In this document: positions 300 to 56,928 of the stretch, piece after piece
How the letters are laid out: each line of letters starts with the position of its first letter
Position numbering within the stretch: the first letter of the stretch is position 1
Assembly: GCF_010686655.1 (NCBI RefSeq)
Contig: NZ_JAAGVY010000014.1
Coordinates: forward strand, 1-64,000
Direction of reading: 5' to 3'
DNA length: 64,000 nucleotides
Source: Cryomorpha ignava
GTDB lineage: Bacteria; Bacteroidota; Bacteroidia; Flavobacteriales_D; Cryomorphaceae
Notes under the pieces: model-generated
What the model was told of the DNA's origin: nothing
Databases searched by the model: none
What the model saw: only the letters and a program-made list of their open reading frames with translations
Translations under genes and position numbers: made by a program

Positions 300-736
300 C
301 TAATCCCACAAATACCTTTCATCATACTCAACATTGTCTCTCTCTAAAATTCTCAAAAACTCTTCTTTAAACGTAACATTCAAATGATGTTCATGCTGAT
401 TTGAAATATATTCTACAACTCCAGCAACATGACTGGGGCTGACAGAAAATGCACCATATCCATCTTGCCAGAAAAAATTGTAAAACGGATCGCCTTTTTC
501 TTTTATCCATTTTGAAGAGTGAGATTTAAGCTCTTGAAGGAATTTTTCCAATGTGATTTTCTTCGATAACATACAAAGTACATGAACATGATCGAGGTGC
601 CCACCAATTTTAATGGTTGTACATCCCAGATTGTTACAGATTCCGCCCAAATAACTGTGCTAAAAATGATGTGGGTGTATTGATTTACGAGTGACTGTCC
701 CAAGGTTGTATATTTTAGATGAAATAGTAATGACAA
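300..736 (-). pseudogene. IS200/IS605-family Y1 HuH transposase (RAYT-like 'transposase IS200-like' of Bacteroidota), frameshifted
   Basis: Two overlapping minus-strand ORFs (503..736 and 300..650) together give a Y1-transposase. The N-terminal part reads ...YTHIIFSTVIW. After a frame change near 640-650 the other frame reads ...GGHLDHVHVLCM (HuH motif) and ...FWQDGYGAFSVSPSHV (catalytic-Tyr region). Neither frame alone is full length. Confidence 0.6.
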
Positions 737-2069: not shown

Positions 2070-2465
2070 ATGAAAGACGATTTCAATAAAGTAAAAAACT
2101 ACATTCTCGATCTGGGTCATTCCATCACAAAGGAAGATGAAGCGGATGGTTTATTGGTAATAGACGACGAAGGTTTGGGAATTAAAAATCTCGTAATAGG
2201 CCTTGCCGATTCTATATTGATAATGGAGCAGTACATTTTGGAGCTAAAACATGCGCCAAAAGAAACGTACATCGAATTATTAAAGAAAAACAGGGACATT
2301 ATTCACGGAGCCTTTGTATTGGATGAATCAGGTCAAAAGTTGATTTTCAGAGATACACTTCAAATGGAGAATCTCGATCAGAATGAACTTGAAGGCTCTA
2401 TCAATTCACTTACTTTATTGCTTTCAGAATTTTCAGAACAGCTTATTGGCTACTCTAAACACTAA
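2070..2465 (+). CDS. Small acidic cytoplasmic protein, first gene of the Psp/flotillin cluster (possibly YbjN-like)
   Basis: A 131-aa ORF sits 11 bp upstream of the PspA-family gene on the same strand. The family assignment is uncertain. Confidence 0.45.
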   Translation: MKDDFNKVKNYILDLGHSITKEDEADGLLVIDDEGLGIKNLVIGLADSILIMEQYILELKHAPKETYIELLKKNRDIIHGAFVLDESGQKLIFRDTLQMENLDQNELEGSINSLTLLLSEFSEQLIGYSKH

Positions 2466-2476
2466 AACGTTAAACG

Positions 2477-3190
2477 ATGAATTTTTTAAAAAGATTATTT
2501 AAAATAGGACAAGCCGAAACACATTCGGCAATAGATAAATTGGAAGATCCAATTAAACTTACAGAGCAAGGTATTCGCGATATGAAGGAAAATCTTTCTA
2601 AGAGCTTGCAGGCTTTAGCAGAAGTTAAAGCAATGGCTATTCGCGCCAGAAACGATAATGAAACTTATACTGATAATGCAACGGACTATCAGGAAAAAGC
2701 AATGCTTTTGCTTCAACGCGCTGAAAAAGGAGAGCTTGAAGGTGCAGAAGCAGATCGCCTGGCAACTGAAGCTTTGATGAAAAAAGCAGAAAACTCGAAA
2801 ATGGCAGAGACTTCACTTACTGAAAAAGATAGATTTGAAAAGTCGGTTGTGCAACTTGAAGGAAATGTAAAGACCATTAAAACCAATATTGGCAAATGGG
2901 AAGCTGAATTAAAAACGCTGAAAGCACGCGTAAAAGTGAGCAACGCAACAAAGAGTTTAAACAAGCAATTGGCTCAAATTGACTCTACCGATACGGTTTC
3001 TTTGCTTGAGCGCATGAAAGAAAAGGTAGCTCAGGAAGAAGCTTTGGCAGAATCTTACGGCGAAATTGCAAATGAAAGCAGAAGTATTGATGAAGATATC
3101 GACAAAGCGCTTGAAGGAAGCGTGGCCAGTAAAGCTCAAGATGAATTGGCAGATTTGAAAGCAAAAATGTCAAAAGGGAAGTTAAATTAG
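2477..3190 (+). CDS. PspA/IM30 (phage-shock protein A / Vipp1) family protein
   Basis: 237 aa, all alpha-helical coiled coil. The N-terminus MNFLKRLFKIGQAETHSAIDKLEDPIKLTEQGIRDMKENL is typical of PspA/IM30. Confidence 0.8.
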   Translation: MNFLKRLFKIGQAETHSAIDKLEDPIKLTEQGIRDMKENLSKSLQALAEVKAMAIRARNDNETYTDNATDYQEKAMLLLQRAEKGELEGAEADRLATEALMKKAENSKMAETSLTEKDRFEKSVVQLEGNVKTIKTNIGKWEAELKTLKARVKVSNATKSLNKQLAQIDSTDTVSLLERMKEKVAQEEALAESYGEIANESRSIDEDIDKALEGSVASKAQDELADLKAKMSKGKLN

Positions 3191-3229
3191 AATGAGCTTA
3201 GAAAAAGGTAATCTTAATTATAAAAAAGC

Positions 3230-3877
3230 ATGATAGAATTATTCCATGCTACCTTTTCGCCTGTGAATATCATTCCGGCCATTATACTCACTTTCGTGGT
3301 GTGCTATTGGTTACTGATCATTTTCGGTGCCTTGGATATTAATTCCTTTGATGTTGAGGTTGATCTTGATGCCGATATGGACATTGATGCCGATGGTGGC
3401 ACGTCAGAATTTTCGGTTTCGTGGTTAAACAACGTTTTGTCATTCTTCAATATCGACAAGATTCCATTGATGATTTTTCTGACTTTCACAGCCATTCCGC
3501 TTTGGGCAATAGCAGTAATGGTCAATCATATACTGGGTAACGAATCGTTTTTGCTATCGCTGCTTTTCCTTATTCCAGAGTTTATTCTCAGCGTTTTAAT
3601 CGCAAAGCCGTTGACCATTCCGTTTGTGAAAATATTTAGCAAACTGAATGAACCGACTGAACAAAATGCAAATTTACTTGGGAAAATGGGCAAAGTGGTT
3701 ATTAGTGCATCAGATTTGAAAATGGGACAAGCTGATGTGAATATCGATGGATCGAGCTATCGCTTGAACATCAAAACAAAAAATGGAAAAATAATGCGTG
3801 GCGAAAGTTTGCTTATCGTCAATTTCTCAGAGCTGGACAAATGCTACATAGTTGAGCCTTATGAATCAATCAATTAA
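3230..3877 (+). CDS. NfeD-like / YqiJ-family inner-membrane protein (OB-fold C-terminus)
   Basis: N-terminal TM helices, an acidic DVEVDLDADMDIDADGG stretch, more TM segments, and a C-terminal beta-rich segment (GKMGKVVISASDLKMGQADVNIDGSSYRLNIKTKNGKIMRGESLLIV). It lies immediately upstream of the flotillin gene, as in yqiJ-yqiK. Confidence 0.6.
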   Translation: MIELFHATFSPVNIIPAIILTFVVCYWLLIIFGALDINSFDVEVDLDADMDIDADGGTSEFSVSWLNNVLSFFNIDKIPLMIFLTFTAIPLWAIAVMVNHILGNESFLLSLLFLIPEFILSVLIAKPLTIPFVKIFSKLNEPTEQNANLLGKMGKVVISASDLKMGQADVNIDGSSYRLNIKTKNGKIMRGESLLIVNFSELDKCYIVEPYESIN

Positions 3878-3887
3878 AAAATAAAAA

Positions 3888-6029
3888 ATGGAAATGTTAG
3901 GTAATATCGGCTTCGGGATAGTCATCTTAGTCGTAATAGTCATCATCGGAATTATCGTGATGATTTCAAGATGGTACAAAAAAGCATCGCAAGGACAAGC
4001 GATTGTGAGAACCGGGGTGGGTGGAACAAGAGTTTCCTTCAATGGAATTTTAATCGTTCCCGTTTTGCACCGAATGGAAACAATGGATATTTCATTAAAA
4101 GCCATTCAAATCGAAAGAGCCGGTGCGGCAGGATTGGTTTGTAGAGATAACATCAGAGCCGACATCAAGGTTGCGTTCTTCATCCGTGTAAACAAAACGC
4201 TTGAAGATGTAATTCAGGTGGCGCAATCTGTAGGCTGTATTCGTTCGTCAGATCCCGCAGCACTAAACGATCTTTTTGACGCAAAATTTTCGGAAGCGCT
4301 TAAAACCATTGGTAAGAAGTTCGATTTTGTTGACTTGTACAATAAACGCGACGAATTTAGAGAAGAGATCGTCAATATTATCGGTACCGATTTGAATGGT
4401 TTCATTCTCGACGATGCCGCGATTGACTATTTGGAACAAACGCCGCTTTCGCAAATGGATGAAAGTAATATTCTCGACGCGGAAGGTATCAAGAAGATTA
4501 TCAGCATTACGTCGCGAGAGAAAATTCAGTCGAACCAAATTGAGAGAGACAGACAAAAAACAATTAGAAAGCAAGATGTTGAAGCGCAAGAAGCCATTCT
4601 GGAGCTCGACAAACAACTTGCAGAGAAGGAAGAAAAGCAAAAACGGGAAATTGCGAATATAAAATCGCGCGAAGAAGCCGAGATTGCTAAAGTACAGCAA
4701 GAAGAGACTCTGAAATCGGAAAGATCGCGCATTATAACCGAAGAAGAAATTCAAATTTCGGAACAGAATAAAGAGCGTGAAATAATTGTAGCATCAAAGA
4801 ATAAAGAAAGAACTTCCGCTGTTGAAACAGAGAGAATTGAGAAGGACAGATTGCTGGAAGTTACCGAGAGAGAGCGTATTGTAACGCTGGCGCAGATTGC
4901 GAAAGAGAAAGCAATTGAAACCCAGAAGCGTGATATTCAGGAAGTCATTCGGGAGCGTGTGGCGATTGAAAAAACGGTGGTTGATGAAGAAGAAAACATC
5001 AAGGACACTCGTGCAAGAGCTCTGGCCAATCGCGAGAAATTAGTCGCTGTCACCAAAGCGGAAGAATCTGCGGAAGCGGCACTTGTAGAGAAAATTAAAG
5101 CAGCTGAAGCAGCCAACCAGGCGGCAGAATTTACGGCAAAGCAAGTCATTATTGAAGCTCAGGCCGAAGAAGAATCTTCCATAAAGCGTGCAGCAGCCAT
5201 GAAAACCATGGCCGATGCCGAAGCGGCCAGGGAAGCAGCTCACGGAATAGCCGAAGCACAAGTAATGGAAGCGAAAGCCACTGCAAGACAGAAAGAAGGA
5301 GATGCGGAAGCCGCAGTAATTGAAGCACGCGCTATGGCTGAAGCCAAAGAAATTCAAGCGAAACAACATGCACGAGCCATTTCCGATTTGGAAATAGGTA
5401 AAGCCGAAGCTGAAGTAATCGAAGCAAAAGCGGTAGCCGAACAGAAAAAAGGACTTGCAGAAGCTGTGGTGAGCAAAGAGAAGTACGATGTGGAGGCAGA
5501 AGGAATTCACAAGAAAGCCGATGCCATGAAAAAATTGGACGGCGTTGGAAAAGATCACGAAGAATTCAAGTTGCGATTGGATAAAGAGAAATCGGTTGAA
5601 TTGGCTCAAATCAGCATCCAGAAAGATATAGCAGATGCTCAGGCCGAAGTTATTTCGAATGCGTTGAAAACTGCAAAAATCGATATTGTTGGTGGTGAAG
5701 CTGTATTCTTTGATAAGATTATTAGCGCCATTTCAAATGGAAAATCGGTGGAGCGTATGATTGACAACAGCGGTACTTTGGGTCAATTGAAAACCCAATT
5801 GCTTGATGGTATCGATGGCTCTACATTGAAAGAGAAGATTGGAAGTTTGGTAGATCAGTTTGGAATTTCATCTGACGATTTGAAGAACCTTTCGGTAAGC
5901 GCATTGATTTTTAAAATGATGCAAGAGAATAGCGATGATAAGCAGCAAGGGGTTTTAAACTCGTTGCTTTCGGCGGCGAAGGCCGCGGGAATTGGTGAAA
6001 AGACGCCGCATAGTTTGGGGATTAAGTAA
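3888..6029 (+). CDS. Flotillin-family (SPFH/band-7) protein, YqiK-like, with long E/A/K-rich coiled-coil tail
   Basis: N-terminal TM segment, then an SPFH core (QAIVRTGVGGTRVSFNGILIVPVLHRMETMDISLKAIQIERAGAAGLVCRDNIRADIKVAFFIRV). This is followed by ~400 aa of EA-rich heptad repeats. Confidence 0.85.
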   Translation: MEMLGNIGFGIVILVVIVIIGIIVMISRWYKKASQGQAIVRTGVGGTRVSFNGILIVPVLHRMETMDISLKAIQIERAGAAGLVCRDNIRADIKVAFFIRVNKTLEDVIQVAQSVGCIRSSDPAALNDLFDAKFSEALKTIGKKFDFVDLYNKRDEFREEIVNIIGTDLNGFILDDAAIDYLEQTPLSQMDESNILDAEGIKKIISITSREKIQSNQIERDRQKTIRKQDVEAQEAILELDKQLAEKEEKQKREIANIKSREEAEIAKVQQEETLKSERSRIITEEEIQISEQNKEREIIVASKNKERTSAVETERIEKDRLLEVTERERIVTLAQIAKEKAIETQKRDIQEVIRERVAIEKTVVDEEENIKDTRARALANREKLVAVTKAEESAEAALVEKIKAAEAANQAAEFTAKQVIIEAQAEEESSIKRAAAMKTMADAEAAREAAHGIAEAQVMEAKATARQKEGDAEAAVIEARAMAEAKEIQAKQHARAISDLEIGKAEAEVIEAKAVAEQKKGLAEAVVSKEKYDVEAEGIHKKADAMKKLDGVGKDHEEFKLRLDKEKSVELAQISIQKDIADAQAEVISNALKTAKIDIVGGEAVFFDKIISAISNGKSVERMIDNSGTLGQLKTQLLDGIDGSTLKEKIGSLVDQFGISSDDLKNLSVSALIFKMMQENSDDKQQGVLNSLLSAAKAAGIGEKTPHSLGIK

Positions 6030-6178
6030 TGTCTGTCCAGAAAGCCCGCTATCGGCGTTGCACTTGAATTGAAAACAGTCATTGACAAATGTCAACTCCT
6101 TGCTTTTCAATTCTGCGTGCGCCTTGCTATCGAACTTTCTGACTCAGACATTTGAGTGCGTTGACATACCCAGAAATT
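6028..6178. mobile_element. MITE-like element, copy 1 (5' terminus aatgtctgtcc...; 3' end degenerate)
   Basis: About 150 bp that align with 56702-56928 over both arms. It contains the internal hairpin attgacaaatgtcaa. It starts at or overlapping the TAA stop of the flotillin gene. Confidence 0.6.
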
Positions 6179-6289
6179 AGACTGTAGTGAGTAAGTTATT
6201 TAAGGTAAAGTGTTTCAAATTTCGGAATACTTTACCCTTTATTATTCGGATTAGAATTCGTGAAAATCAATATTTAGTGAACTAAACAA

Positions 6290-9200
6290 ATGCAAGAAGA
6301 GCAAGAAAATACAGAAGAGCCGGGCACCGTTTTAGAGCAGGGAACTTACGAGATCATCAAAGATCGACTGTTAAAGCAGGGCGATATTTTACGTTCGAAG
6401 CTGGATAAGCTCAACGAAGCCAGAAAAGATGTGTTTGGTGCTATTGAAACGACTTTGCTCACCACAGAGCGCATTACCACAGAAAACAATTGTGTACCAC
6501 GGGACATGGTTGCGATAGCCGATAATTTCATTTTTGGCTATAACGTTTTTATGGGCTTGAAATCGGTTACGCTTTTAACGGATGTTTTTAACATTTATGA
6601 ATATAAAGACCGGAGTTTTATTAAGAAGGACTTGGAGCTGATTAACAACCAGTCTTTTATTCGCGACTTTGAAAATCTATACAAATACTATAAGCAAACA
6701 CAGTTTGCAAAGTTCGCTGTAACCGGCCCGTTTCTCTACATTATTTTTAAAATTGGTGACAACGAAACCGACATCAAAGTTTTTAAATGGCAGATTGATG
6801 GCAATGCTTTAATTTATTCGGAAGATAGGGCTGCGAATGAATTTAGTTTTCCCGATCAGCAGCAGTTTCGATGGAAGAAAACGACGCGCGATATGTTTCG
6901 TGACGGGCTACACCCGCATATTTCTATTGAAGATCAAATTTTCGTAGAAACCGTTGGCGGCGATTTGACTATTAAAATAGAAGACAATACTGAAGATGGG
7001 AAGGGGATTTTTAACGAGCCGGTTGAATACAAAGACCAGGTGCTGCACGATGCTGAAATTCTTTACTCTATCGTTGGAAATTTGATTTTTCTGAAGATCA
7101 AACCTTATAAGGAAAACACGTTTCGGTACATTATATACAACAAGAAAATTCAGCAGGCTATGCGTGTTGATGATATTGAGAATGCGTGCGTTTTGCTGCC
7201 CGAAGACTATGGTGTGATTTTCCCGAAAGGATATTATTTACAAACCGGCGAATCCAAAATATTCAATACCGATTTGAATTCGATGCTTTACGAAAAGACC
7301 ATTGAATCGCCCAACGGAGAAGATTTTCTATATATTTTTTACAATAGAAAATCGGGAACTTACATTTTGCTTTCGTATAATTTAATTTCGCAAACTGTTG
7401 CCAACCCTGTTATTTGCCACGGCTATTCCATTTTCGGCAGTGGCGAGATGTGCTATTTTAAGGGCGAAAATGAAGCTCAGAAACATCATGCTATTCAGAT
7501 TTGGCAAACACCTTATTTATTAGATGTTGCCGACTTTGTTGGAAAAGAAGATTCCTTTTTATCCAAAATTGGAAATAAGGACATTGTGAAGGGAATGGCG
7601 GAGAGTAATGAAGTGCTAAGCCTGATACATAAAAAGGACTCTTACGCCAATCTTTACATCGATATTGTAAGGAAAGTAACGGGTATTGTCGATTCGTTTT
7701 ATTGGCTTGATAAAAAGGAAGCGTTTAATTTGAGTGCTACGCTTGCTGAAATCAGAACCGTTGCAGATTCTGCCATTAATGAGTTTGAGAAAGTCATTAA
7801 AATCAAGAAGAATACGCAAGAAGAATTTAAACGTGTAGAAGTGGAGGTTACCGCTTTGATGCGCGCGTTGAAAATTGCGAAATTCAAGGATATTGATGAA
7901 TTTGTGAAGCTCTTGGCTGAAATTAGAAACATTCGCGGACAGGTAATGAGCCTGACCGATTTGCGCTATATAAACGAAGCGGCCATTGAGAATTACGAAG
8001 AAAAGCTAAAGGCCGAAAATGAGAAGCTCTCGCAGAAATGCGTCAAGTTTTTGTTGAAAAAGGAAGCTTTATCTTATTATGAAACCAAGGTGAAAGAGCT
8101 AAGCGATTCTGTTCATAAACTCACCAAAGTAGTTGAAGCCAATGAGCTGGAAGAAGATGTATTGAAAACATCGAAAGAGCTTGAAATGCTGATTGAGATT
8201 GTGAGTAATCTCAAGATCGAAGATGCGACCCAAACTACTACTATAATCAATAATATTTCAGAAATATACGCTTCGTTCAATCAAATAAATGCCGCACTTA
8301 AAAGAAAGCGAAAAGAGCTGTTTTTGGTGGAAGGCGAAGCCGAATTTCATTCCCAGTTAAAACTAATCAGCCAGGGAATCATCAATTATCTCGACATTTC
8401 TGATACTACAGAAAAGTGTGAAGAATATTTAACCAAGCTGATGATTCAGCTGGAAGAGCTTGAAGGCAAATTCAGTGAATTTGATGAATTTTTAGATAAG
8501 ATAAGCGAGAAGCGCACAGAAGTTTACAATGCCTTTGAAGCGAGAAAAGTGCAGCTCATTGAGAAGAAAAACAAGCGTACTTCTGCCTTGCAGGCTTCTG
8601 CCGATAGAATTTTGGCAGGAGTGAAGCATAGGCTGGAAGGAATGGAAAATATGGATGCCATTAATGGATACATGGCGTCTGACCTGATGGTAGATAAGTT
8701 GCGAAATATTGTTCAGGAATTGATTGGCCTTGGCGATACCGTGAAGGCAGATGAAGTGCAAGGAAAGCTAAAGTCAACACAAGAAGATGCCATTAGACAG
8801 CTTAAAGACAAGACTGATCTTTACGATGGCGAAAACCTTATTTCTTTCGGAAAGCACAAATTTTCGGTCAATAATCAATTGCTCGACCTTACGATTGTGC
8901 CGCGAAGTAATGCCATGTTTTACCACGTAACCGGAACCAACTTTTTTGAAGAGATTAAAGATCCGAAGTTCCTGGCTACCCGTGAAGTCTGGGATCAAGA
9001 GTTGATTTCTGAAAATAATACAGTGTATCGATCAGAATATTTGGCCTTATTACTTTTTAATGCCATTTCAAATTCAAAAAACTTTACGCTAAAAGATGCT
9101 GCACGCTGGCCAGATGAGCGGATGGAAAGTTTCATTGCTGAATTCGTTGCTCCGCGCTATGACGAAGGCTACAGCAAGGGCGTTCACGATGAAGACGCAG

Positions 9201-11182
9201 CTCTTATTTTGTGGGAACTCTTAGACATGACCACCAAAGGCGGCGTGTTGAAATACGATCCAAAAGCCAGAGTAGGAGCTATCTATTTCTGGAATTTATA
9301 CTTGAACAAAGAAAAAAGACAAAGCTTAAACAGCGAAATAAAGGGCGCCGGAATAATCCTGAAAGCTTTTCCAAATTCGAATGCGTTTAGCGACTTGATT
9401 GGAAAAATTGAAAGCTTAATGATTGACTTTTCAAATCAGCAATCTGTTTTCCTTCAGGAGAATGTAAAAGATGCAGCCAGTTATTTATTTGCCGAATTAG
9501 CTGACAACGGCATTTTTAGCGTTAGCAAAGGCGCAAGCGATTTTAAAACCGAATTTCAAAAGAACTTAAAAGAGAACAAGCAGGAGAAAAACTATCAGGA
9601 TTCGATTGATTCCATAGATTCTCCAGAAGGGAAATTTACGCTGATAAGAAGTTGGTTGCTCGCTTTCGCGGAAACGCAAACAGGTAATTTTGACACAATT
9701 ATTGATGAAACAGCTCTTGTTTTGGCCGAAAGCGATCAGGAATTCAAATTGGTTGATGCGTCACTAAACGTTTCTATCGAAGGCATTCAAGGTGAGCACT
9801 CCAGAATTGCTAATGGCGAATTAATCGTTGATTACCATAATTATAATAATCGATTAAGAAATTTTCATGCTAAAACAGTACCAGCTTTTCAGCAATTTAA
9901 GGAATTGAAAAAAGAATTAATTGATACTTATCGTGAAGAGCTGAAGCTAAATGAGTTGAAGCCGCGAGTGATGAACTCTTTTGTACGCAATGAATTGATC
10001 AATAAGGTTTATCTGCCAATGATTGGCGATAACCTGGCAAAGCAAATAGGAACGGCCGATGCCAATAAGCGAACAGATTTGATGGGTATGCTGCTACTGA
10101 TTTCTCCGCCGGGATATGGTAAAACCACGCTGATGGAATATATTGCCAGCAGGCTGGGTGTGATTTTTCTGAAAATTAACGGCCCGGCAATTGGGCATGA
10201 AGTTACATCGCTCGACCCAACAGATGCGCCCAACGCGGGAGCGCGAGAAGAAATTGAAAAGCTGAATCTCGGTTTGGAAATGGGCGATAATGTGATGATT
10301 TATCTCGATGATATTCAGCATTGCAACCCCGAGTTTCTACAGAAGTTTATCTCCCTTTGCGATGCCCAGCGAAAGATAGAAGGCGTTTACAAAGGAAAGA
10401 GCAAGACCTATGACTTGCGCGGAAAGAAAGTCTCGGTAGTAATGGCCGGAAATCCATATACCGAAAGCGGCGACAAATTCAAGATTCCGGATATGCTTGC
10501 CAATAGAGCCGACATTTACAATCTGGGCGATATTCTGGGCGGAAACAAACGGGCTTTCGAATTGAGCTATATTGAAAACAGTTTGACATCGAATTCCACT
10601 TTGCGCAAACTGTCCGGAAAGAGCCAGCAAGATCTCTACACATTTATTCAGATCGCCGAAACCGGCGAGAGTGAAGGACTTGATTTTGAGTCAAACCACT
10701 CTGCCGAAGACATTGCTGATTATGTGAACACTTTAAAGAAGCTCATTCAAATTAGGGATGTCGTTTTAAAAGTAAATCAACAATACATTCAGTCGGCAGC
10801 GATGGAAGAGCAATACCGTATGGAGCCTTCGTTTAAGTTGCAGGGCTCGTACCGAAATATGAATAAAATGGCCGAGAGAGTCGTACCGATAATGAATGAA
10901 GATGAGCTGAAAACGCTCATCATGAACAACTACGAAAACGAATCTCAAACATTGACAACCAGCGCCGAGGCAAACTTATTAAAATTCAAATCGCTTATGG
11001 ATTGGCAAACACCAGAAGAAGAAAAACGCTGGCAAGAGTTGATTGCTATTTTTCTGAAAAATCAGAAGATGAAGGGTTTTGGGGGTGATAATCAGATTGG
11101 TTTGATTTTGAATCAGATGGAGGCGCTTTCGGAGGGGCTGTTTGGTATTAAGAATGTGCTGGCTAAGGGGAAGGGGGAGTGA
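6290..11182 (+). CDS. Giant (1630 aa) multidomain protein: N-terminal beta-rich region, ~450-aa coiled-coil, C-terminal AAA_5/MoxR-like AAA+ ATPase domain
   Basis: Uninterrupted ORF. Walker A LLISPPGYGKTT, Walker B VMIYLDDIQH and sensor-1-like VVMAGNPY sit in the last ~350 aa. The central region is heptad-rich and K/E-rich. No match to a named family could be made by eye. Confidence 0.8.
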   Translation: MQEEQENTEEPGTVLEQGTYEIIKDRLLKQGDILRSKLDKLNEARKDVFGAIETTLLTTERITTENNCVPRDMVAIADNFIFGYNVFMGLKSVTLLTDVFNIYEYKDRSFIKKDLELINNQSFIRDFENLYKYYKQTQFAKFAVTGPFLYIIFKIGDNETDIKVFKWQIDGNALIYSEDRAANEFSFPDQQQFRWKKTTRDMFRDGLHPHISIEDQIFVETVGGDLTIKIEDNTEDGKGIFNEPVEYKDQVLHDAEILYSIVGNLIFLKIKPYKENTFRYIIYNKKIQQAMRVDDIENACVLLPEDYGVIFPKGYYLQTGESKIFNTDLNSMLYEKTIESPNGEDFLYIFYNRKSGTYILLSYNLISQTVANPVICHGYSIFGSGEMCYFKGENEAQKHHAIQIWQTPYLLDVADFVGKEDSFLSKIGNKDIVKGMAESNEVLSLIHKKDSYANLYIDIVRKVTGIVDSFYWLDKKEAFNLSATLAEIRTVADSAINEFEKVIKIKKNTQEEFKRVEVEVTALMRALKIAKFKDIDEFVKLLAEIRNIRGQVMSLTDLRYINEAAIENYEEKLKAENEKLSQKCVKFLLKKEALSYYETKVKELSDSVHKLTKVVEANELEEDVLKTSKELEMLIEIVSNLKIEDATQTTTIINNISEIYASFNQINAALKRKRKELFLVEGEAEFHSQLKLISQGIINYLDISDTTEKCEEYLTKLMIQLEELEGKFSEFDEFLDKISEKRTEVYNAFEARKVQLIEKKNKRTSALQASADRILAGVKHRLEGMENMDAINGYMASDLMVDKLRNIVQELIGLGDTVKADEVQGKLKSTQEDAIRQLKDKTDLYDGENLISFGKHKFSVNNQLLDLTIVPRSNAMFYHVTGTNFFEEIKDPKFLATREVWDQELISENNTVYRSEYLALLLFNAISNSKNFTLKDAARWPDERMESFIAEFVAPRYDEGYSKGVHDEDAALILWELLDMTTKGGVLKYDPKARVGAIYFWNLYLNKEKRQSLNSEIKGAGIILKAFPNSNAFSDLIGKIESLMIDFSNQQSVFLQENVKDAASYLFAELADNGIFSVSKGASDFKTEFQKNLKENKQEKNYQDSIDSIDSPEGKFTLIRSWLLAFAETQTGNFDTIIDETALVLAESDQEFKLVDASLNVSIEGIQGEHSRIANGELIVDYHNYNNRLRNFHAKTVPAFQQFKELKKELIDTYREELKLNELKPRVMNSFVRNELINKVYLPMIGDNLAKQIGTADANKRTDLMGMLLLISPPGYGKTTLMEYIASRLGVIFLKINGPAIGHEVTSLDPTDAPNAGAREEIEKLNLGLEMGDNVMIYLDDIQHCNPEFLQKFISLCDAQRKIEGVYKGKSKTYDLRGKKVSVVMAGNPYTESGDKFKIPDMLANRADIYNLGDILGGNKRAFELSYIENSLTSNSTLRKLSGKSQQDLYTFIQIAETGESEGLDFESNHSAEDIADYVNTLKKLIQIRDVVLKVNQQYIQSAAMEEQYRMEPSFKLQGSYRNMNKMAERVVPIMNEDELKTLIMNNYENESQTLTTSAEANLLKFKSLMDWQTPEEEKRWQELIAIFLKNQKMKGFGGDNQIGLILNQMEALSEGLFGIKNVLAKGKGE

Positions 11183-11264
11183 TGATTTTGAGATTTAGAG
11201 CGTGGATTTTTACTAATGTTAAAGACGATTTCAAAAATGTGGAATTGATCCTTAATTTTAAAAA

Positions 11265-11651
11265 ATGAGTAGACCATTAAACTTAAACAGTCAAGGAGAA
11301 GTAGTCAACTTAAAAGAAGGCAGATACGGAGTTTACATACTTGGTGGATTTGGAATTAGTCTTGGTCATTTCTCAATTTCACTTAAACATATAGGAAAAA
11401 ATGAAGAGATTAAAAGTGTGAAAGCCTTTTGGCCAGTACAAACTTTTGTCAATGGAGAAAGAGCGAAAAAAATATTTATTATAAATGTGATTAAATCAGG
11501 ACAATATGAAGTGATATTCCATAATCCCAAAACTGTAGAAGTGAAAAGCTCAAATTTACTAACTAGTTCGTTTTTCAATAGCCCATTGTTAAATGATAAT
11601 TTGGAAGTAATATTTACAAAAAAGCTGGTGCCTTTCGGTTTCGTAAAATAG
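11265..11651 (+). CDS. Hypothetical protein (128 aa) inside the inserted segment
   Basis: An ORF with no recognisable motifs. It lies between the giant gene's stop and the decayed island genes. Confidence 0.35.
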   Translation: MSRPLNLNSQGEVVNLKEGRYGVYILGGFGISLGHFSISLKHIGKNEEIKSVKAFWPVQTFVNGERAKKIFIINVIKSGQYEVIFHNPKTVEVKSSNLLTSSFFNSPLLNDNLEVIFTKKLVPFGFVK

Positions 11652-11736
11652 AAATACACATACTTGTCTTTCAACTTGATGGAATATGGATTTAGAACGC
11701 TTTTTACAGAAATTTCGAATCTAAGTTGAAAAACTA

Positions 11737-11976
11737 TTGACCAAGGTAAAAAACATATTACTGATTGTCCTGCTTATTATAATCGGTATTCCTTTGTTTA
11801 TTCTGGCAATTCCGTTTATGATCCTAGTTGTTATTATTGGATATTTTCAACGGAAAAAATATTCGAAGTTTTTAAGTGACAACAACGGTAAAAATTTCTT
11901 AAACTCGATAAACCTAAAATACGGATATTCTACAATAGACATCAGATCACCAAAAGAAGTTACACATGGAGACTAA
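11737..11976 (+). CDS. Hypothetical small membrane protein (79 aa, two TM helices)
   Basis: ILLIVLLIIIGIPLFILAIPFMILVVIIGYF is a hydrophobic hairpin followed by a basic stretch. Confidence 0.35.
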   Translation: MTKVKNILLIVLLIIIGIPLFILAIPFMILVVIIGYFQRKKYSKFLSDNNGKNFLNSINLKYGYSTIDIRSPKEVTHGD

Positions 11977-12250
11977 TAAAAAGCCAGGCAAAGAATTTCA
12001 TGCCGTGGAATTTATGAGACAGGTACGTGAAGAAATGACCGAACAGTTCATTGAAGACAGACAAAAATACTTGGAGTATTTGAAAAAATCGATCGCAGAT
12101 TTTAAAATCAGGCAGGCTAAAGCATTCAATAAGGAAGGGCTATAGACAATGAGGCAATGGTTTAACGTAATGACGAACTAAGTCACAAGACATTCATTAC
12201 GAAATAAGATAAAGTAGCGATTGAGAGAGATGAATAATTTGACTTTTTAT

Positions 12251-12285
12251 AGCAAATCAGGCTCAAGAGTTAAATCTTGGTTTCA
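12251..12285. repeat. Direct repeat of the 3' end of the HTH gene (tagcaaatcaggctcaagagttaaatcttggtt); second copy at 13270-13304
   Basis: An exact ~34-bp duplication. The downstream copy encodes the C-terminus (LANQAQELNLGYE) of ORF 12851..13309. Confidence 0.6.
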
Positions 12286-12391
12286 AATAATTCAATTATT
12301 TATAGAGTTAAGACACTTCATGCAGCCGAGAATAATCTTATGAAACGGGTAGTTTAAATCTTTGCCGATTTTTATCTTTATTTCAAATCAG

Positions 12392-12705
12392 ATGGCAAAA
12401 GGAAGAACATTACAGGTAAAAGAATCTGCAATTACGCTTATCACTCAAACCGAAATCGACTATATCAGCTTGACCGATATGACTTCGACTTTTAGAGTGG
12501 ATAGCGGTTTAATTGGGAAATAAGATTACCAACAAAAATACGTTGGAAAATTTGGATGTTTGGGAACGCGTAAATAACCAAAGTTTTAATTACCCTGCCA
12601 TACGGCATTCCTTCGGTCGTCGGGGTAATTGAAATGGAAGCCGGAACAAATAGATTCATAATGTCTGTGCGGCAATGGATTAACAGAGTACAAGCAATTG
12701 GATAG
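12392..12705 (+). pseudogene. KilA-N domain protein, multiply frameshifted remnant
   Basis: Three consecutive frame pieces resemble the common Bacteroidota KilA-N protein. They are MAKGRTLQVKESAITLITQTEIDYISLTDM..., then ...NTLENLDVWERVNNQSFNYPAIRHSFGRRGN*, then MEAGTNRFIMSVRQWINRVQAIG*. These match MAK..ISLTDIARY..TIDFLGLWE..NP.F...EAGSNSFTMSPSQWIE.TGAVG, but no single frame is intact. Confidence 0.55.
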
Positions 12706-12850
12706 ATTACGACAAATTGAAGCTAAAGCCCCCGTAAATCACTTTTTATGCTTTTTGACATAAGCTGACTTCTAGTAGCGCTATCGAATATTTCGTTCGT
12801 TTCGTCTATTTCGTTTCAAAATTATTCGTATTTTTGGTAAAAGAAAGATT

Positions 12851-13309
12851 ATGGAAGCAATAACAGAACAAACTACAAAGGCGGATCAAAAAATTGCTCT
12901 TAACTCTTTGGATGCGTTACTAAATGTTTCGAATAGAGTAAAAGCATCACGAAAAACAGGCGTGAAAATTAAAGTTCAAGAAACTGGTGAGTTCATGACA
13001 ATACCTAAAAAAGCCTTGGAGCTTCTTTTTTCTATTGTTCAGAACATGTCTGAGGGAAGATCTATTTCTTTAGTTCCTTCTGATTTGGAAGTAAGTACCC
13101 AGCAAGCAGCAGACATGCTAAATGTTTCGCGACCTTACTTAGTGAAGTTGATAGAGTCTGGTAATATTCCTTTTAAAAAAATTGGAAGCCATAGAAGAAT
13201 TCTATTACAAGATATTATTGCCTATCAATCGAAATTAGCGTGCGAGAGAGAAAAACAACTTGATTTTTTAGCAAATCAGGCTCAAGAGTTAAATCTTGGT
13301 TATGAATGA
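12851..13309 (+). CDS. HTH (excisionase/MerR-like HTH_17) putative antitoxin partner of the PIN gene
   Basis: DMLNVSRPYLVKLIESGNIPFKKIGSHRRILLQDIIAY is a helix-turn-helix excisionase-family motif. It overlaps the PIN ORF start by 4 bp. Confidence 0.5.
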   Translation: MEAITEQTTKADQKIALNSLDALLNVSNRVKASRKTGVKIKVQETGEFMTIPKKALELLFSIVQNMSEGRSISLVPSDLEVSTQQAADMLNVSRPYLVKLIESGNIPFKKIGSHRRILLQDIIAYQSKLACEREKQLDFLANQAQELNLGYE

Positions 13310-13876
13310 TTCACTCACCAGTCTTGACGGTTGTGATAGATGCATGTGTTTTGTATCCAGCCCCTATTAGAGACGTTTTACTTTCAATGGCTTTTGAAGG
13401 CTTATTTGAACCTAAATGGTCTAGAGCTATTCAGGACGAATGGACAGGAAACCTTTTAATTAACAGGGAAGACTTAAATAAAAAACAACTGGATGGAACA
13501 ATTCAAGCAATGAATCGTGCTTTTCCTGATTCAAATGTTCTAAATTTTGAAGAGCTTATTCCGAGCTTGTCATTACCAGATAAAGATGATAGGCATGTTT
13601 TAGCTTGTGCAATAAAATGCAAGGCAGATTTGATTACAACGTTTTAATTTAATAGATTTCCCATCTAAAACAATTGAGAAGTATGGTATTCAGATTCAAA
13701 ATCCAGATGAATTGATTTGTAATTTGATTAATATGAACGAAAAAATAGCTTGCAAGGCTTTTGCAAAAATGATTAGTCGCTTAAAAAATCCGCCTAAAAC
13801 AAAATTTGAAGTGGCAGCAACTTTGAAAAAATGTGGATTGACGAAAAGTTCAAATCGATTGAAAAACTTATGCTGA
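13306..13876 (+). pseudogene. PIN-domain (VapC-like) toxin gene with +1 frameshift in a T4 run
   Basis: Frame 0 reads MIHSPVLTVVIDACVLYPAPIRD...DRHVLACAIKCKADLITTF*, with the stop at 13645-13647. The canonical PIN continuation FNLIDFPSKTIEKYG... is in the +1 frame and reads on to a TGA at 13874-13876. Removing one T from tttt (13642-13645) restores ...ADLITTFNLIDFP... Confidence 0.55.
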
Positions 13877-13932
13877 CCGCTAAGGCAAGCACGCTCACGA
13901 CCGCCGACCGAATGAAGTCCACATGGAGCCTT

Positions 13933-13998
13933 CGTTTAATTTGCAGGGTTTGTTTGGGATTAAGAATGTGCTGGCTAAGGGGAATGGAGATGAGCGAA
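13933..13998 (+). repeat. Internally deleted duplicate of the 3' end of the giant ATPase gene (footprint / att-like repeat)
   Basis: 13933-13960 matches 10819-10846 (atggagccttcgtttaa[g/t]ttgcaggg). 13958-13998 matches 11138-11178 (ctgtttgg.attaagaatgtgctggctaaggggaa.gg.ga). The junction falls at a shared gggct microhomology, which suggests loss of ~290 bp between the two parts. Confidence 0.65.
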
Positions 13999-14060
13999 GT
14001 GAATGAGATAATGGTATACAATAAAAACCTTACAATCAATTATTTAGTTGAAAACAAAAA

Positions 14061-14609
14061 ATGAGATTTAATCCATTTCCCGAAATTAAAACCAAAAGGC
14101 TTTCACTTAGAAAAATTCTAGAGTCAGACTGTGACGAAATTCTATTCTTACGTTCAGATAAAACGGTCAATGCATACATTGAAAGAGCTGAGAATAGAAA
14201 AACTAAGAATATATCTGATGCAATAAAATTCATCAAGAATACAGCTGAATATCTCGAAACAGGCCGGTCAATCGCTTGGGGAATAACTCTAAATGGCGAC
14301 TCAGAAATTATTGGAACAATTTGTTTGTGGAATTTTTCTGAGAACAATAAAATTGCCGAAGTTGGATATGATTTGAACCCTAAATTTCAGGGGAAAGGTA
14401 TTATGAGTGAGACTCTCAGGAAGGTTATCGACTTTGGTTTTAAAGAATTAAAACTTGACAAAATAGAAGCATTCACAAACTCTGAGAATGTACGTTCTAC
14501 AAAACTGTTAGAAAATAACGGCTTTCGCTTAAACGGGGATCGAAAAGATATAGACAATGACTCAAATATTATATTTGAACTTGATAATACCAGTAGCGAA
14601 AATGGATAA
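14061..14609 (+). CDS. GNAT family N-acetyltransferase (RimJ/RimL-like)
   Basis: 182 aa with an acetyl-CoA binding region ...KFQGKGIMSETLRKVIDFGFKELKLDKIEAFTNSENVRSTKLLENNGF. Confidence 0.75.
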   Translation: MRFNPFPEIKTKRLSLRKILESDCDEILFLRSDKTVNAYIERAENRKTKNISDAIKFIKNTAEYLETGRSIAWGITLNGDSEIIGTICLWNFSENNKIAEVGYDLNPKFQGKGIMSETLRKVIDFGFKELKLDKIEAFTNSENVRSTKLLENNGFRLNGDRKDIDNDSNIIFELDNTSSENG

Positions 14610-14682: not shown

Positions 14683-15084
14683 ATGATCGGATTAGACGAC
14701 AAAAAAGGCCACATAGCCGCATTAATAAAATTGGCAAAAGCCGATGGTGTCATTTCACAATACGAATCGAATTTAATTAAAATGATTGCCATAAGAATGG
14801 GAATCTCAAGCAACGATTTTAATGAAATCGTAATCAATATCGAGAGTGTCAATTCTTTACCGCCATCAAAAAGAGAAGAAAAAGAAGTGTATTTATACAA
14901 CCTTTTTATGCTGATGAAGATTGATTTGAAAACCGATCCTGACGAACAAAAAATGTGCGAAGAGCTTGCGCTACGCTTGGGCTTTGGCGTCGATGAAGTA
15001 AAAAGATCCGGAGAGTTTATGACAGCGAATCTAAGTGAAGTGACTGATTTTGATGATTTTATAAACGTTTTAAATAACAAGTAG
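14683..15084 (+). CDS. TerB-like (tellurite-resistance TerB / DjlA N-terminal-like) domain protein, paralog 1
   Basis: HIAALIKLAKADGVISQYESNLIKMIA...DEQKMCEELALRLGF. It is paralogous to the next ORF. Confidence 0.55.
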   Translation: MIGLDDKKGHIAALIKLAKADGVISQYESNLIKMIAIRMGISSNDFNEIVINIESVNSLPPSKREEKEVYLYNLFMLMKIDLKTDPDEQKMCEELALRLGFGVDEVKRSGEFMTANLSEVTDFDDFINVLNNK

Positions 15085-15087
15085 AGC

Positions 15088-15540
15088 ATGAATTATTGGG
15101 AAAAGATAGTTGCGTTATTTAGGAGTGAAGACAAAAAACCGCCCATTCCGGGCATGGACGATAAAACATCATTGATTTTGCTCTTGATTAAATTGGCGCA
15201 AATAGATGGGCATGTAAACCACTTTGAGCAGATGAACATTCACATGCTTTCAAATACGCTTGGAGTTGACATCAGGGATGTGAACAAATGGCGCGATCAG
15301 TTGGAAGATGTGGTATTGGTTTTACCCAAAACCAAAATAGAACGTGTAGATTATTTCTGGCGATTTGTTACCATGATGAATATGGATTTAAATGCCCACC
15401 CGAAAGAGCAGAGAATGTGCGTAGAACTTGCCGATGCGCTTGGCTTTAGAAAAAGTAGGGTAGAAGAAGCTATGGCTTTTGCGCTTGATAGGAGAAATGG
15501 AGCCATTAAATTTGACGATATGAAGGGAATTTTGGTGTAA
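15088..15540 (+). CDS. TerB-like domain protein, paralog 2
   Basis: LLLIKLAQIDGHVNHFEQMNIHML...KEQRMCVELADALGF. It follows paralog 1 with a 3-bp gap. Confidence 0.55.
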   Translation: MNYWEKIVALFRSEDKKPPIPGMDDKTSLILLLIKLAQIDGHVNHFEQMNIHMLSNTLGVDIRDVNKWRDQLEDVVLVLPKTKIERVDYFWRFVTMMNMDLNAHPKEQRMCVELADALGFRKSRVEEAMAFALDRRNGAIKFDDMKGILV

Positions 15541-15830
15541 TATGTTTTCTTAATCCCGCAACTCAATTCATAAAATATATAGGATATCTGAATCTCATCA
15601 ATCAAGAAATAAATATCATAGCTAAGCCTTGATTGCTGAAAAAATAAGATCAATTCTTAAAAAAAGAAGAACCATGCTCAAAAAGCGTCGTGGAAAAGCA
15701 TTTCTGAATTCTCAAACCCATTAAGCGAAGAAATAGAAGTAAAACAAGCATCCACTACTTGATATCACCAAATTTCGGCCAAAGTAGTCTTCAAGATTGA
15801 ACGGCTCTATGCTCTACTGCTGCCTGAATT

Positions 15831-16331
15831 TCACTTCACAACCTCCCGTTTCGGAAAATCCATATATTCCATTTTCCCTGTGTGGGCAGATACTTCGGCC
15901 CAATCGTCAAAATCAAAAGTAATTTTACAAATACCGCAGGTGGGAAGATTCAGTATGCCGGCACCAGTTAAATAATCTGCCAAATCAGTAAATCCGGGAT
16001 TGTGACCATACATAATCACGGAATTATAACCGTTGTCAAGCCCATTTACTATTATAAGCAATTCGCGTACATGTGCTTCATAGATTTTTGGCTCTTCTTG
16101 TATGTCATCAACTGCATAACCCAATTCCTGAGCCATCAACTTTGCTGTAGTAATCGCTCTTTTGGCCGGGCTGCTAATTATCAAATCTATTTCGTGATCG
16201 CGTTCAGCAAGTCTTTTGCCCATCATAGGCGCATCATGCATGCCACGTTTGTTAAGCGGTCGATCAAAATCATTCATTTGGCTATCTCCCCAGTCTGATT
16301 TTGCATGTCGGTTTAAAAACAAGTGTTTCAT
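15831..16331 (-). CDS. Histidine phosphatase family protein (SixA-like phosphohistidine phosphatase)
   Basis: The N-terminal LNRHAKSDWG (RHG-type catalytic motif) and ~160 aa size fit branch-1 SixA-like histidine phosphatases. Confidence 0.7.
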   Translation of the reverse strand: MKHLFLNRHAKSDWGDSQMNDFDRPLNKRGMHDAPMMGKRLAERDHEIDLIISSPAKRAITTAKLMAQELGYAVDDIQEEPKIYEAHVRELLIIVNGLDNGYNSVIMYGHNPGFTDLADYLTGAGILNLPTCGICKITFDFDDWAEVSAHTGKMEYMDFPKREVVK

Positions 16332-56701: not shown

Positions 56702-56928
56702 TTAGTGTCTGTCCATAAAGTCCGCTATCTGCGTTGCACTTCATTTGCAAACAGTCTTTTCGACTCATCTCGACTCATCTCGACTCCGCTCTATGACCAC
56801 CGCTCGATAACCACCGCTCAAGGCATCGCACTGACAAATGTCAACTCCTTGATTTCTAATTCTACGTGCGCCTTTCTATCAAACATTCTGACCGAGACAC
56901 TAGAGTGTATTGACAGACACTAATTTAG
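56702..56928. mobile_element. MITE-like element, copy 2 (perfect terminal inverted repeats ttagtgtctgtc / gacagacactaa)
   Basis: A 12-bp perfect terminal inverted repeat. It aligns with 6028-6178 across both arms. It carries an extra internal block with 3 x tcgactcatc tandem units and a ttgacaaatgtcaa hairpin. Confidence 0.65.

What the first reader, a model, noticed from the sequence alone, without database searches (positions are those of the whole stretch)
10819..13998. Insertion footprint: the 3' end of the giant ATPase gene is duplicated (and internally deleted) 2.75 kb downstream, bracketing a decayed island
Sequence 13933-13998 rejoins two blocks that are ~290 bp apart in the intact gene: 10819-10846 and 11138-11178.
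The joint falls at a shared gggct microhomology.
A former full duplicate of the last ~360 bp of the gene therefore flanks the 11183-13932 segment. This is the signature of an integrative element that inserts into the 3' end of a protein-coding gene and carries a replacement 3' end in its attP.
Everything between the two copies looks accessory or decayed: a KilA-N pseudogene, a frameshifted PIN toxin, an internal 34-bp duplication and orphan small ORFs.
No integrase remains in the segment.
Basis: seen in the sequence. Interest (0 to 1): 0.7.

Follow-up and report, generated by a model that had tools for sequence, protein, structure and literature searches.

The report
Orphaned gene-end marking an insertion seam
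A short, broken second copy of the end of a giant ATPase gene lies 2.7 kb downstream in Cryomorpha ignava; it is a real but ordinary scar of accessory DNA having been recombined into a conserved stress operon, and nothing shows that a dedicated integrating element made it.

Summary
Window 13923-14006 (not 13933) is a second copy of the 3' end of the 1630-aa DUF3686/AAA gene (6290-11182). Block 10820-10846 (25/27 identical) is fused to block 11138-11173 (33/36). Exactly 291 nt (97 codons, in frame) are missing between them. The alignment score is far above shuffles and real-sequence controls. The structure recurs in independent environmental contigs, so it is not an assembly artefact.

The three closest lineages have the giant gene followed directly by a TerB gene. 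The whole 3.5 kb at 11183-~14667, GNAT included, is therefore lineage-specific. The remnant sits at the seam between block A (ORF128, small ORFs, toxin-antitoxin relic, KilA-N pseudogene, HTH_17-PIN pair) and block B (GNAT).

No recombinase or relic of one is present. None of 80 related loci shows a 3'-end duplicate. The island modules occur singly in unrelated contexts, and a second partial-gene relic lies inside the island. The two copies are 92% identical to each other versus about 73% to the nearest species, so the incoming copy came from the same lineage.

Homology-driven insertion that displaced the resident 3' end is my preferred mechanism, and an e14/icd-like integrase relic is the main rival. 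Interest is low.

The parts
6290..11182 (+). Intact giant gene, 1630 aa (DUF3686 + DUF7902 + AAA); 100% identical to a Cryomorpha ignava protein
10820..10846 (+). Proximal copy, block 1 (codons 1511-1519, MEPSFKLQG); left edge of the duplicated segment
10847..11137 (+). 291 nt (97 codons) present in the gene but missing from the remnant
11138..11195 (+). Proximal copy, block 2 (LFGIKNVLAKGKGE*, stop at 11180-11182) plus about 13 nt of weak post-stop similarity
11183..13922 (+). Accessory block A, 33% GC versus 40% for the giant gene; absent from L020, L002 and L003
11265..11651 (+). ORF128, a conserved hypothetical family (9 homologues, 50-58% identity) found in unrelated accessory contexts
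11737..11976 (+). ORF79, a possible small membrane protein; unverified, and not called as a gene in L088
11966..12145 (+). ORF59, a small ORF called as a gene in L088 and L089; no family match
12185..12294 (+). Relic of a second antitoxin gene 3' end plus the first 8 nt of a PIN gene. It is 97% identical over 38 nt to 13264-13301 and 77% over 110 nt to the L106 antitoxin
12390..12720 (+). KilA-N-like pseudogene: only the N-terminal ~94 aa remain, spread over three frames
   Evidence: Pfam negative
12851..13309 (+). HTH_17 (excisionase-type HTH) antitoxin, 152 aa; overlaps PIN by ATGA
13306..13876 (+). PIN_3 toxin, 189 aa when read with T3. The window has an extra T at 13642-13645, which truncates the ORF at 13647
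13877..13922 (.). 46-nt spacer of 63% GC between the PIN stop and the remnant; unique in the window, origin unexplained
13923..14006 (+). Orphaned 3'-end remnant of the giant gene (MEPSFNLQG|LFGIKNVLAKGNGDERSE*), 58/63 identical to the gene in its two blocks
14061..14609 (+). GNAT acetyltransferase (accessory block B), also absent from the related loci
14683..15540 (+). Two TerB-domain genes, the ancestral immediate neighbours of the giant gene

Best explanation
13923-14006 is a non-functional, orphaned copy of the last 121 codons of the DUF3686 AAA-ATPase gene. It marks the seam between two separately acquired accessory blocks: A (11183-13922) and B (GNAT). Together these form a 3.5-kb lineage-specific spacer inside an otherwise conserved operon (CesT-like, PspA, two unknown genes, DUF3686 ATPase, TerB, TerB).

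Most likely mechanism (inferred). DNA from a closely related Cryomorpha genome entered by recombination that used homology within the giant gene. That DNA carried its own copy of the gene's 3' end next to different downstream cargo. Entry was either (i) one homologous crossover plus an illegitimate join, that is, homology-facilitated illegitimate recombination (HFIR), or (ii) a single-crossover 'Campbell' insertion of a circular fragment. Either route leaves one complete 3' end on the gene and pushes the other copy downstream.

The displaced copy then lost 291 nt by slippage at an AGGG microhomology and is drifting, with a K-to-N change in the universally conserved FKLQG motif. Which block arrived last cannot be told: A inserting into a giant-GNAT junction, or remnant plus GNAT joining behind block A.

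Shown: the duplication, the deletion, the insertion relative to relatives, and the absence of a recombinase. Inferred: the enzyme, the donor and the order of events.
For: - The duplicate is real and highly significant and is present in independent samples.
- Giant-to-TerB adjacency in L020, L003 and L002 shows that 11183-~14667 is inserted.
- The two copies are 58/63 identical, against 46/63 and 45/63 to L020, and they share the Met1511 codon where close relatives have Thr. The second copy therefore came from the same lineage.
- There is no divergence step at 10820 against L020: 81.0% identity upstream and 80.2% in 10820-11137.
- No recombinase domain appears in any ORF from 1 to 25.8 kb, and block A is almost fully accounted for by other features.
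- No 3'-end duplicate occurs in 80 related loci.
- Island modules occur singly in unrelated contexts: ORF128 between trmD and rplS, the toxin-antitoxin pair next to an SDR gene, and GNAT elsewhere.
- A second relic of the same type, an antitoxin 3' end, lies inside the island. All such relic repeats in the 64-kb window lie in this 3.5 kb.
- Displaced 'orphan' 3' regions produced by homologous anchoring plus illegitimate joining have been proposed for T6SS and Rhs loci (PMC5361080).
Against: - No donor or empty-site allele was found, so the event is reconstructed from a single lineage.
- No clear microhomology is visible at the left junction (CCAC|ATGG versus CCGT|ATGG).
- The duplicated segment begins at the most conserved C-terminal motif (EPSFKLQG) and ends just past the stop codon. 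That is exactly what an attP mimic of a gene-end-targeting integrase would look like.
- Island content (excisionase-type HTH, KilA-N, toxin-antitoxin) is typical of mobile elements.
- HFIR is reported to be rare compared with ordinary homologous recombination (PMC5361080).
Confidence: 0.5

Rival explanations
1. Relic of a site-specific integrative element of the e14/icd type. The element's attP carried about 375 bp mimicking the gene's 3' end, and a tyrosine integrase crossed over near codon 1511. The element-borne copy now completes the gene. The native 3' end was displaced to the far att site and decayed. The integrase and most of the element were later deleted.
For: - The topology is identical to icd-e14-icdC (PMC13626634).
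- The intact gene is complete.
- Homology starts sharply at 10820/13923, at the conserved EPSFKLQG-coding stretch, and ends about 13 nt past the stop.
- The island is AT-richer than its flanks.
- It carries mobile-element-type genes: HTH_17/excisionase-type, KilA-N and a toxin-antitoxin pair.
Against: - No integrase or fragment of one is present, and little unassigned space remains in the 2.74 kb.
- None of 80 related loci shows a 3'-end duplicate.
- No integrase family appears among families shared by two or more of 131 immediate downstream ORFs.
- An XerD probe found nothing in 3431 ORFs. This is weak evidence: the probe was recalled from memory and had no positive control.
- The HTH_17 gene is the antitoxin of a PIN pair that occurs as a stand-alone module, not an excisionase.
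- Both copies share lineage-specific states, so any 'attP' would have been captured recently from this lineage.
- The internal antitoxin relic shows that partial duplications arise here without an att site.
Confidence: 0.3
2. Purely intragenomic origin. A tandem duplication spanned the gene's 3' end and its downstream DNA. Unrelated insertions and deletions then replaced most of one copy, leaving the 84-nt remnant.
For: The copies are 92% identical and share Met1511. The locus clearly accumulates rearrangements.
Against: - Nothing downstream of the remnant resembles the start of block A, and nothing upstream of it resembles the gene before 10820. Several extra events are therefore needed.
- Three of the five differences between the copies are synonymous. 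This hints, without significance, at divergence while both copies were functional alleles in different genomes.
Confidence: 0.1
3. The remnant is a selected functional element, for example a 27-aa micro-ORF or a regulatory sequence upstream of GNAT, or it is a chance or assembly artefact.
For: - The 291-nt deletion is in frame and the remnant keeps an ATG and a stop codon.
- The remnant is retained in three assemblies.
Against: - Being in frame has a 1-in-3 chance.
- The strains are at least 99.9% identical genome-wide, so retention is uninformative.
- One of the only two differences in L082 is a non-synonymous change inside the remnant.
- K-to-N hits an invariant motif position.
- The remnant is absent from all other taxa.
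- Chance is excluded, and an artefact.
Confidence: 0.03

Closest known systems
e14 cryptic prophage in E. coli icd, with the icdC C-terminal pseudogene (PMC13626634; Hill et al. 1989, cited there)
   Same: An intact gene whose 3' end lies inside the inserted DNA, and a C-terminal pseudogene copy at the far end of the insert. Direct repeats could recombine to delete the insert and make a chimeric gene.
   Different: - e14 is 15 kb and carries a working integrase and excision system. Here the insert is 2.7 kb with no recombinase.
- The distal copy is internally deleted.
- Only 17- and 26-nt identical tracts remain.
- No recurrence in other genomes was found.
Orphaned 3' regions and immunity arrays downstream of Rhs, CDI and T6SS effector genes, attributed to homology-facilitated illegitimate recombination (PMC5361080)
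   Same: A conserved 5' gene body acts as the anchor. A new 3' end plus cargo arrives, and the old 3' end is shifted downstream and left as an orphan fragment. Successive events build a patchwork.
   Different: - The ATPase 3' end is not a polymorphic toxin domain, and there is no effector-immunity logic.
- Only one displaced fragment is present.
- The cargo is unrelated accessory genes.
Genomic islands that target the 3' end of tRNA or tmRNA genes
   Same: The target's 3' end is duplicated as direct repeats flanking the island, and the gene is restored by island-borne sequence.
   Different: - No tRNA is involved.
- The repeat would have been about 375 bp rather than tens of bp.
- There is no integrase.

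Membership tests
Integrative element using a protein-gene 3' end as attB (e14/icd type) | Direct duplication of the target gene's 3' end on both sides of the insert | tested here: met
   10820-10846 plus 11138-11173 match 13923-13985 at 58/63, with an alignment score far above controls
Integrative element using a protein-gene 3' end as attB (e14/icd type) | Target gene kept intact by the insert-proximal copy | tested here: met
   1630-aa ORF, colinear to its end with homologues of 1624-1660 aa
Integrative element using a protein-gene 3' end as attB (e14/icd type) | Site-specific recombinase (integrase) gene, or a relic of one, within the insert | tested here: not met
   Pfam, NCBIfam and PHROG scans of all island ORFs and of neighbours from 1 to 25.8 kb found none. 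An XerD probe was negative but had no positive control
Integrative element using a protein-gene 3' end as attB (e14/icd type) | Same attB used recurrently: related elements or empty sites in other genomes | tested here: not met
   No 3'-end duplicate or island gene in 80 related loci. Downstream neighbours are TerB or housekeeping genes. Caveat: only 10-kb flanks were examined, and only 80 of more than 553 loci
Integrative element using a protein-gene 3' end as attB (e14/icd type) | Excision to a circular form that restores attB | not testable with these tools
   Needs PCR or read-level data from C. ignava
Homology-facilitated illegitimate recombination / orphaned 3' end displacement | Homologous anchor upstream, and a displaced resident 3' fragment downstream of new cargo | tested here: met
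   Structure of the locus. The cargo is absent in relatives
Homology-facilitated illegitimate recombination / orphaned 3' end displacement | Short microhomology at the illegitimate joint | tested here: inconclusive
   The donor sequence is unknown. Only CC..ATGG is shared around 13919-13926 and 10816-10823
Homology-facilitated illegitimate recombination / orphaned 3' end displacement | Donor allele with alternative downstream cargo exists in the population | tested here: inconclusive
   Only near-identical strains (at least 99.9%) were recovered. The next relative is 81% identical
Type II toxin-antitoxin pair (HTH_17 antitoxin + PIN_3 toxin) | Two small adjacent or overlapping genes, the second with a PIN domain, occurring as a portable two-gene module | tested here: met
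   HTH_17 at 1e-11 and PIN_3 at 1.8e-7. ATGA overlap at 13306-13309. The same pair occurs in L093 (60-66% aa) and L106 (84% nt) in other contexts
KilA-N domain gene (as pseudogene) | Significant match to the KilA-N family | tested here: inconclusive
   The Pfam KilA-N model did not hit even at E up to 10. The stitched three-frame translation does match 22 plasmid genes annotated 'KilA-N domain-containing protein' over at least 80% of its length, with E down to 9e-18

The most novel reading that the evidence does not exclude
The scar is the last trace of a so-far undescribed family of Bacteroidota integrative elements. Their integrase would target the DNA encoding the near-invariant EPSFKLQG motif of DUF3686 AAA-ATPase genes, and they would carry a ~375-bp replacement 3' end. 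The HTH_17-PIN pair and the 46-nt GC-rich spacer would form the element's right arm.
Probability: 0.1. Interest if true: 0.4.

Novelty: new member of a known kind. Interest (0 to 1): 0.18.

Why it matters
The finding matters mainly as annotation. It shows that 13923-14006 is a pseudogene fragment and not a gene or regulatory element. It shows that ORF 13831-14064 is spurious. It also shows that the 3.5 kb between the DUF3686 ATPase and the TerB genes is a lineage-specific accretion that splits a conserved PspA-associated operon.

It gives a dated, readable example of how accessory genes (a toxin-antitoxin pair, GNAT) are stacked behind a conserved gene. The remaining 17- and 26-nt identical tracts could still mediate deletion of block A, which would produce a chimeric ATPase C-terminus. 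It does not open a new question unless an integrase-bearing relative is found.

Tried and rejected
1. Divergence step at 10820 as a sign of a foreign 3' end. None was found: 81.0% versus 80.2% identity to L020, with third-position identity 56% in both.

2. Recurrence of the scar. tblastn of the C-terminus against 80 related loci found nothing. A repeat search around L020's own insertion found no relic.

3. Empty site. GNAT homologues are at most 75% identical and never lie next to a DUF3686 gene. Exact-protein look-ups recovered only near-identical strains.

4. Origin of block A. There are no plasmid or phage DNA matches beyond a 155-nt PIN hit. The metagenome scan with PIN gave only stand-alone toxin-antitoxin pairs.

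5. The GC-rich 46-mer. It is unique in the window, with no Rfam or tRNA hit and no homology to the gene upstream of codon 1511 in any frame. A 'TLTT' peptide match to the deleted region is out of order and at chance level for a 4-mer, so I dismissed it.

6. The 16-nt inverted repeat 10825-10840 / 11306-11321 (I8) as a possible recombinase site. I rejected it because the second arm encodes the semi-conserved NL(K/E)xG of ORF128 in homologues from unrelated loci.

7. Whether the island block is identical between strains while its flanks diverge, which would suggest a recent import. It is not. Upstream flanks differ by only 3/3549. Only the patch 15193-15895 is divergent.

8. Integrase search with an XerD sequence recalled from memory. 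There were no hits in 3431 ORFs, but with no positive control this is weak evidence.

9. A literature search for DUF3686 found no papers.


Full report
**Source and setting.** The giant ORF 6290-11182 (1630 aa) is 100% identical to a protein of Cryomorpha ignava on an 87.9-kb isolate contig. It carries DUF3686, DUF7902 and an AAA domain. It is the fifth gene of a co-directional cluster:
- a CesT_Tir_1-like gene (2070-2465);
- PspA/IM30 (2477-3190);
- two genes without family matches (3230-3877 and 3888-6029);
- the ATPase;
- further downstream, two TerB-domain genes (14683-15084 and 15088-15540).

- 13923-13949 matches 10820-10846 at 25/27.
- 13950-13985 matches 11138-11173 at 33/36.
- Weaker, indel-containing similarity runs to about 13 nt past both stop codons.
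- The segment absent from the distal copy is 10847-11137, exactly 291 nt or 97 codons. The remnant therefore reads in frame as MEPSFNLQG|LFGIKNVLAKGNGDERSE*, with its stop at 14004-14006.
- The joint lies in AGGG, which is shared in frame by both flanks.

A gapped local alignment of 13901-14020 to the gene scores 43.2. Shuffles give 11.0 +/- 1.4, and 120 real 120-nt control windows give at most 19.9.

The same arrangement is present in short contigs from two independent sequencing runs:
- L081 and L082 cover PIN 3' end, spacer, remnant and GNAT.
- L088 and L089 cover giant 3' end, ORF128 and ORF59.

All are at 98.7-100% identity. L088 and L089 both end at 12279, inside one of the repeats. This rules out a chimeric assembly.

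**What lies between and around the copies.** Block A (11183-13922, 33% GC versus 40% for the gene) contains the following.
- ORF128 is a real conserved family with nine homologues at 50-58% identity.
- Two small ORFs follow it.
- A 110-nt relic of an antitoxin gene 3' end plus the first 8 nt of a PIN gene lies at 12185-12294.
- A KilA-N-like pseudogene is reduced to about 94 N-terminal residues spread over three frames. The stitched translation matches plasmid genes annotated KilA-N at E down to 9e-18. Pfam's own model did not hit it.
- An HTH_17 antitoxin and a PIN_3 toxin form a pair that overlaps by ATGA.
- An unexplained 46-nt spacer of 63% GC closes the block.

The PIN frameshift is an extra T in a T-run at 13642-13645. 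Both environmental contigs have T3 and an intact 189-aa gene that aligns end to end with a 189-aa homologue. So 'everything is decayed' is too strong.

**Comparison with relatives.** The nearest other species is L020, a Cryomorphaceae MAG with 81% nucleotide identity across the gene. There the ATPase stop is followed 22 nt later by TerB1, with no block A, no remnant and no GNAT. L003 and L002 also have a TerB gene 36 and 165 nt after the stop. By parsimony the whole of 11183-~14667, GNAT included, is a C. ignava-lineage insertion. The remnant sits at the seam between block A and the GNAT block.

The predicted empty site (giant gene followed by GNAT) was not found. GNAT's best homologues are 74-75% identical, some named Lutibacter, and sit in unrelated neighbourhoods. 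L020 carries a different insertion, an AAA_14/DUF4143 gene, between TerB1 and TerB2. That insertion has no relic repeat.

**Is there evidence for a dedicated integrative element?** I found none.
- No recombinase domain appears in any ORF of the island or of the surrounding 25 kb. The only transposase-type gene is a Y1_Tnp at 300-572, 10 kb away.
- None of 80 related loci has a second copy of the C-terminus or any island gene.
- Of their 131 immediate downstream ORFs, the families seen more than once are TerB, racemase/dehydratase, metallo-beta-lactamase, EamA, DUF4178 and similar. Integrases are not among them.
- A crude XerD probe found nothing, but it had no positive control.
- Caveats: flanks were 10 kb, and only the best 80 of more than 553 loci were held.

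The island's modules occur singly elsewhere. ORF128 lies in a small accessory cluster between trmD and rplS, and also behind an unrelated large gene. The toxin-antitoxin pair lies next to an SDR gene in L106 (84% nt) and in another context in L093. There are no plasmid or phage DNA matches.

**Where did the second copy come from?**
- The two copies are 58/63 identical, whereas each is only 45-46/63 identical to L020 over the same columns.
- Both have ATG (Met) at codon 1511, where the close relatives have Thr (ACA in L020). Met does recur in two distant homologues.
- Identity to L020 does not change at 10820: 81.0% upstream and 80.2% in 10820-11137, with third-position identity 56% in both.

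So neither copy is foreign, and the incoming homology came from within the Cryomorpha lineage. Of the five differences, three are synonymous and two are K-to-N. One K-to-N hits the K/R of the FKLQG motif that is conserved in all homologues shown. This is consistent with relaxed constraint on the remnant.

**Mechanism.** The topology is: intact gene with 3' copy 1, then cargo, then 3' copy 2, then old downstream DNA. Three routes produce it:
1. site-specific integration of an element whose attP mimics the gene end, as for e14 in icd with its icdC pseudogene (PMC13626634);
2. RecA-dependent single-crossover insertion of a circular fragment that carries the gene end;
3. a homologous anchor in the gene plus an illegitimate join at 10820, as proposed for orphaned 3' regions of T6SS and Rhs loci (PMC5361080).

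I favour the homology-driven routes (about 0.5) over an integrase relic (about 0.3), for four reasons:
- there is no recombinase and no recurrence;
- both copies have a lineage-internal origin;
- the cargo is a mosaic of stand-alone modules;
- a second partial-gene relic, of the antitoxin gene, lies inside the island.

All relic-type repeats in the 64-kb window fall within this 3.5 kb. This argues for repeated general recombination here rather than one att-directed event.

Points that favour the integrase model are the sharp left edge at the most conserved C-terminal motif, the right edge just past the stop codon, and the mobile-element flavour of the cargo. The order of arrival of block A and the GNAT block cannot be resolved. 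After the event, the displaced copy lost 291 nt at an AGGG microhomology.

**Population data.** The two environmental strains are almost identical to the isolate: 3 differences in 3549 nt upstream and 0-1 substitutions across the island contigs. They give no information on polymorphism of the insert. The only divergent patch is 15193-15895, in TerB2 and beyond. It has 12 substitutions, nine of them within 37 nt, and a 17-nt indel. It probably reflects a separate recombination tract.

**Verdict.** This is a genuine, statistically solid scar: an orphaned, internally deleted 3' end of the ATPase gene at the seam of an accreted 3.5-kb accessory spacer. It is an ordinary kind of footprint. The 'integrative element with a replacement 3' end' reading is possible but unproven, and my evidence leans against it. 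Interest is low.

Noticed in passing
window 6080-6169 and 56829-56918: A 90-nt intergenic repeat, 83% identical, that contains the palindrome TTGACAAATGTCAA. One copy lies just upstream of the giant ATPase gene. There is no Rfam match. It could be a shared operator or promoter, or a small mobile repeat.
   Followed up: partly
window 2070-11182 and 14683-15540: A conserved co-directional cluster: CesT_Tir_1-like, PspA/IM30, two genes without any family, DUF3686/DUF7902/AAA ATPase, then two TerB-domain genes. The ATPase-TerB adjacency is kept in the nearest relatives. No paper mentioning DUF3686 was found.
   Followed up: partly
L020 11612-13459: The nearest species has its own, different insertion in the same operon: a 480-aa AAA_14/DUF4143 ATPase between TerB1 and TerB2. 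It has no flanking relic repeat.
   Followed up: yes
window 12185-12294 vs 13203-13313: A second partial-gene relic inside the island: the last ~100 nt of an HTH_17 antitoxin gene plus the first 8 nt of PIN, sitting upstream of the KilA-N pseudogene. The Logan contigs L088 and L089 both break at 12279, inside it.
   Followed up: yes
window 13642-13645: The PIN toxin gene is interrupted by one extra T in a T-run. Two environmental contigs have T3 and an intact 189-aa gene. This is either a strain-specific inactivation or a homopolymer sequencing error.
   Followed up: partly
window 13877-13922: A 46-nt spacer of 63% GC in a ~35% GC region, between the PIN stop and the remnant. It is unique in the window, has no RNA-family match, and shows no homology to the ATPase gene. 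Its origin is unexplained.
   Followed up: partly
window 15193-15895 vs L081: A local patch of high divergence from an otherwise ~99.9%-identical environmental strain: 12 substitutions, nine of them within 15402-15438 in TerB2, and a 17-nt indel at 15568. It looks like a short recombination tract.
   Followed up: no
window 300-572 (-): A 90-aa ORF whose identical copy in L113 carries a Y1_Tnp (IS200/IS605 or REP-associated tyrosine transposase) Pfam hit. It lies next to an HTH_3/HTH_19 regulator gene at 1223-1876.
   Followed up: no
window 10825-10840 and 11306-11321: A 16-nt inverted repeat (15/16) between duplicate block 1 and the 5' part of ORF128. It is probably coincidental, because the second arm encodes a semi-conserved NL(K/E)xG motif of the ORF128 family.
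   Followed up: yes
window 13831-14064: A 77-aa ORF spans the PIN end, the spacer and the remnant (in another frame) and ends in an ATGA overlap with the GNAT start. It is almost certainly spurious but could be mis-annotated as a gene.
   Followed up: no
window 34714-36492 (-): Five diverged ~78-nt repeats at a spacing of 380-510 nt inside the 910-aa gene on the minus strand. They are presumably repeated protein domains.
   Followed up: no
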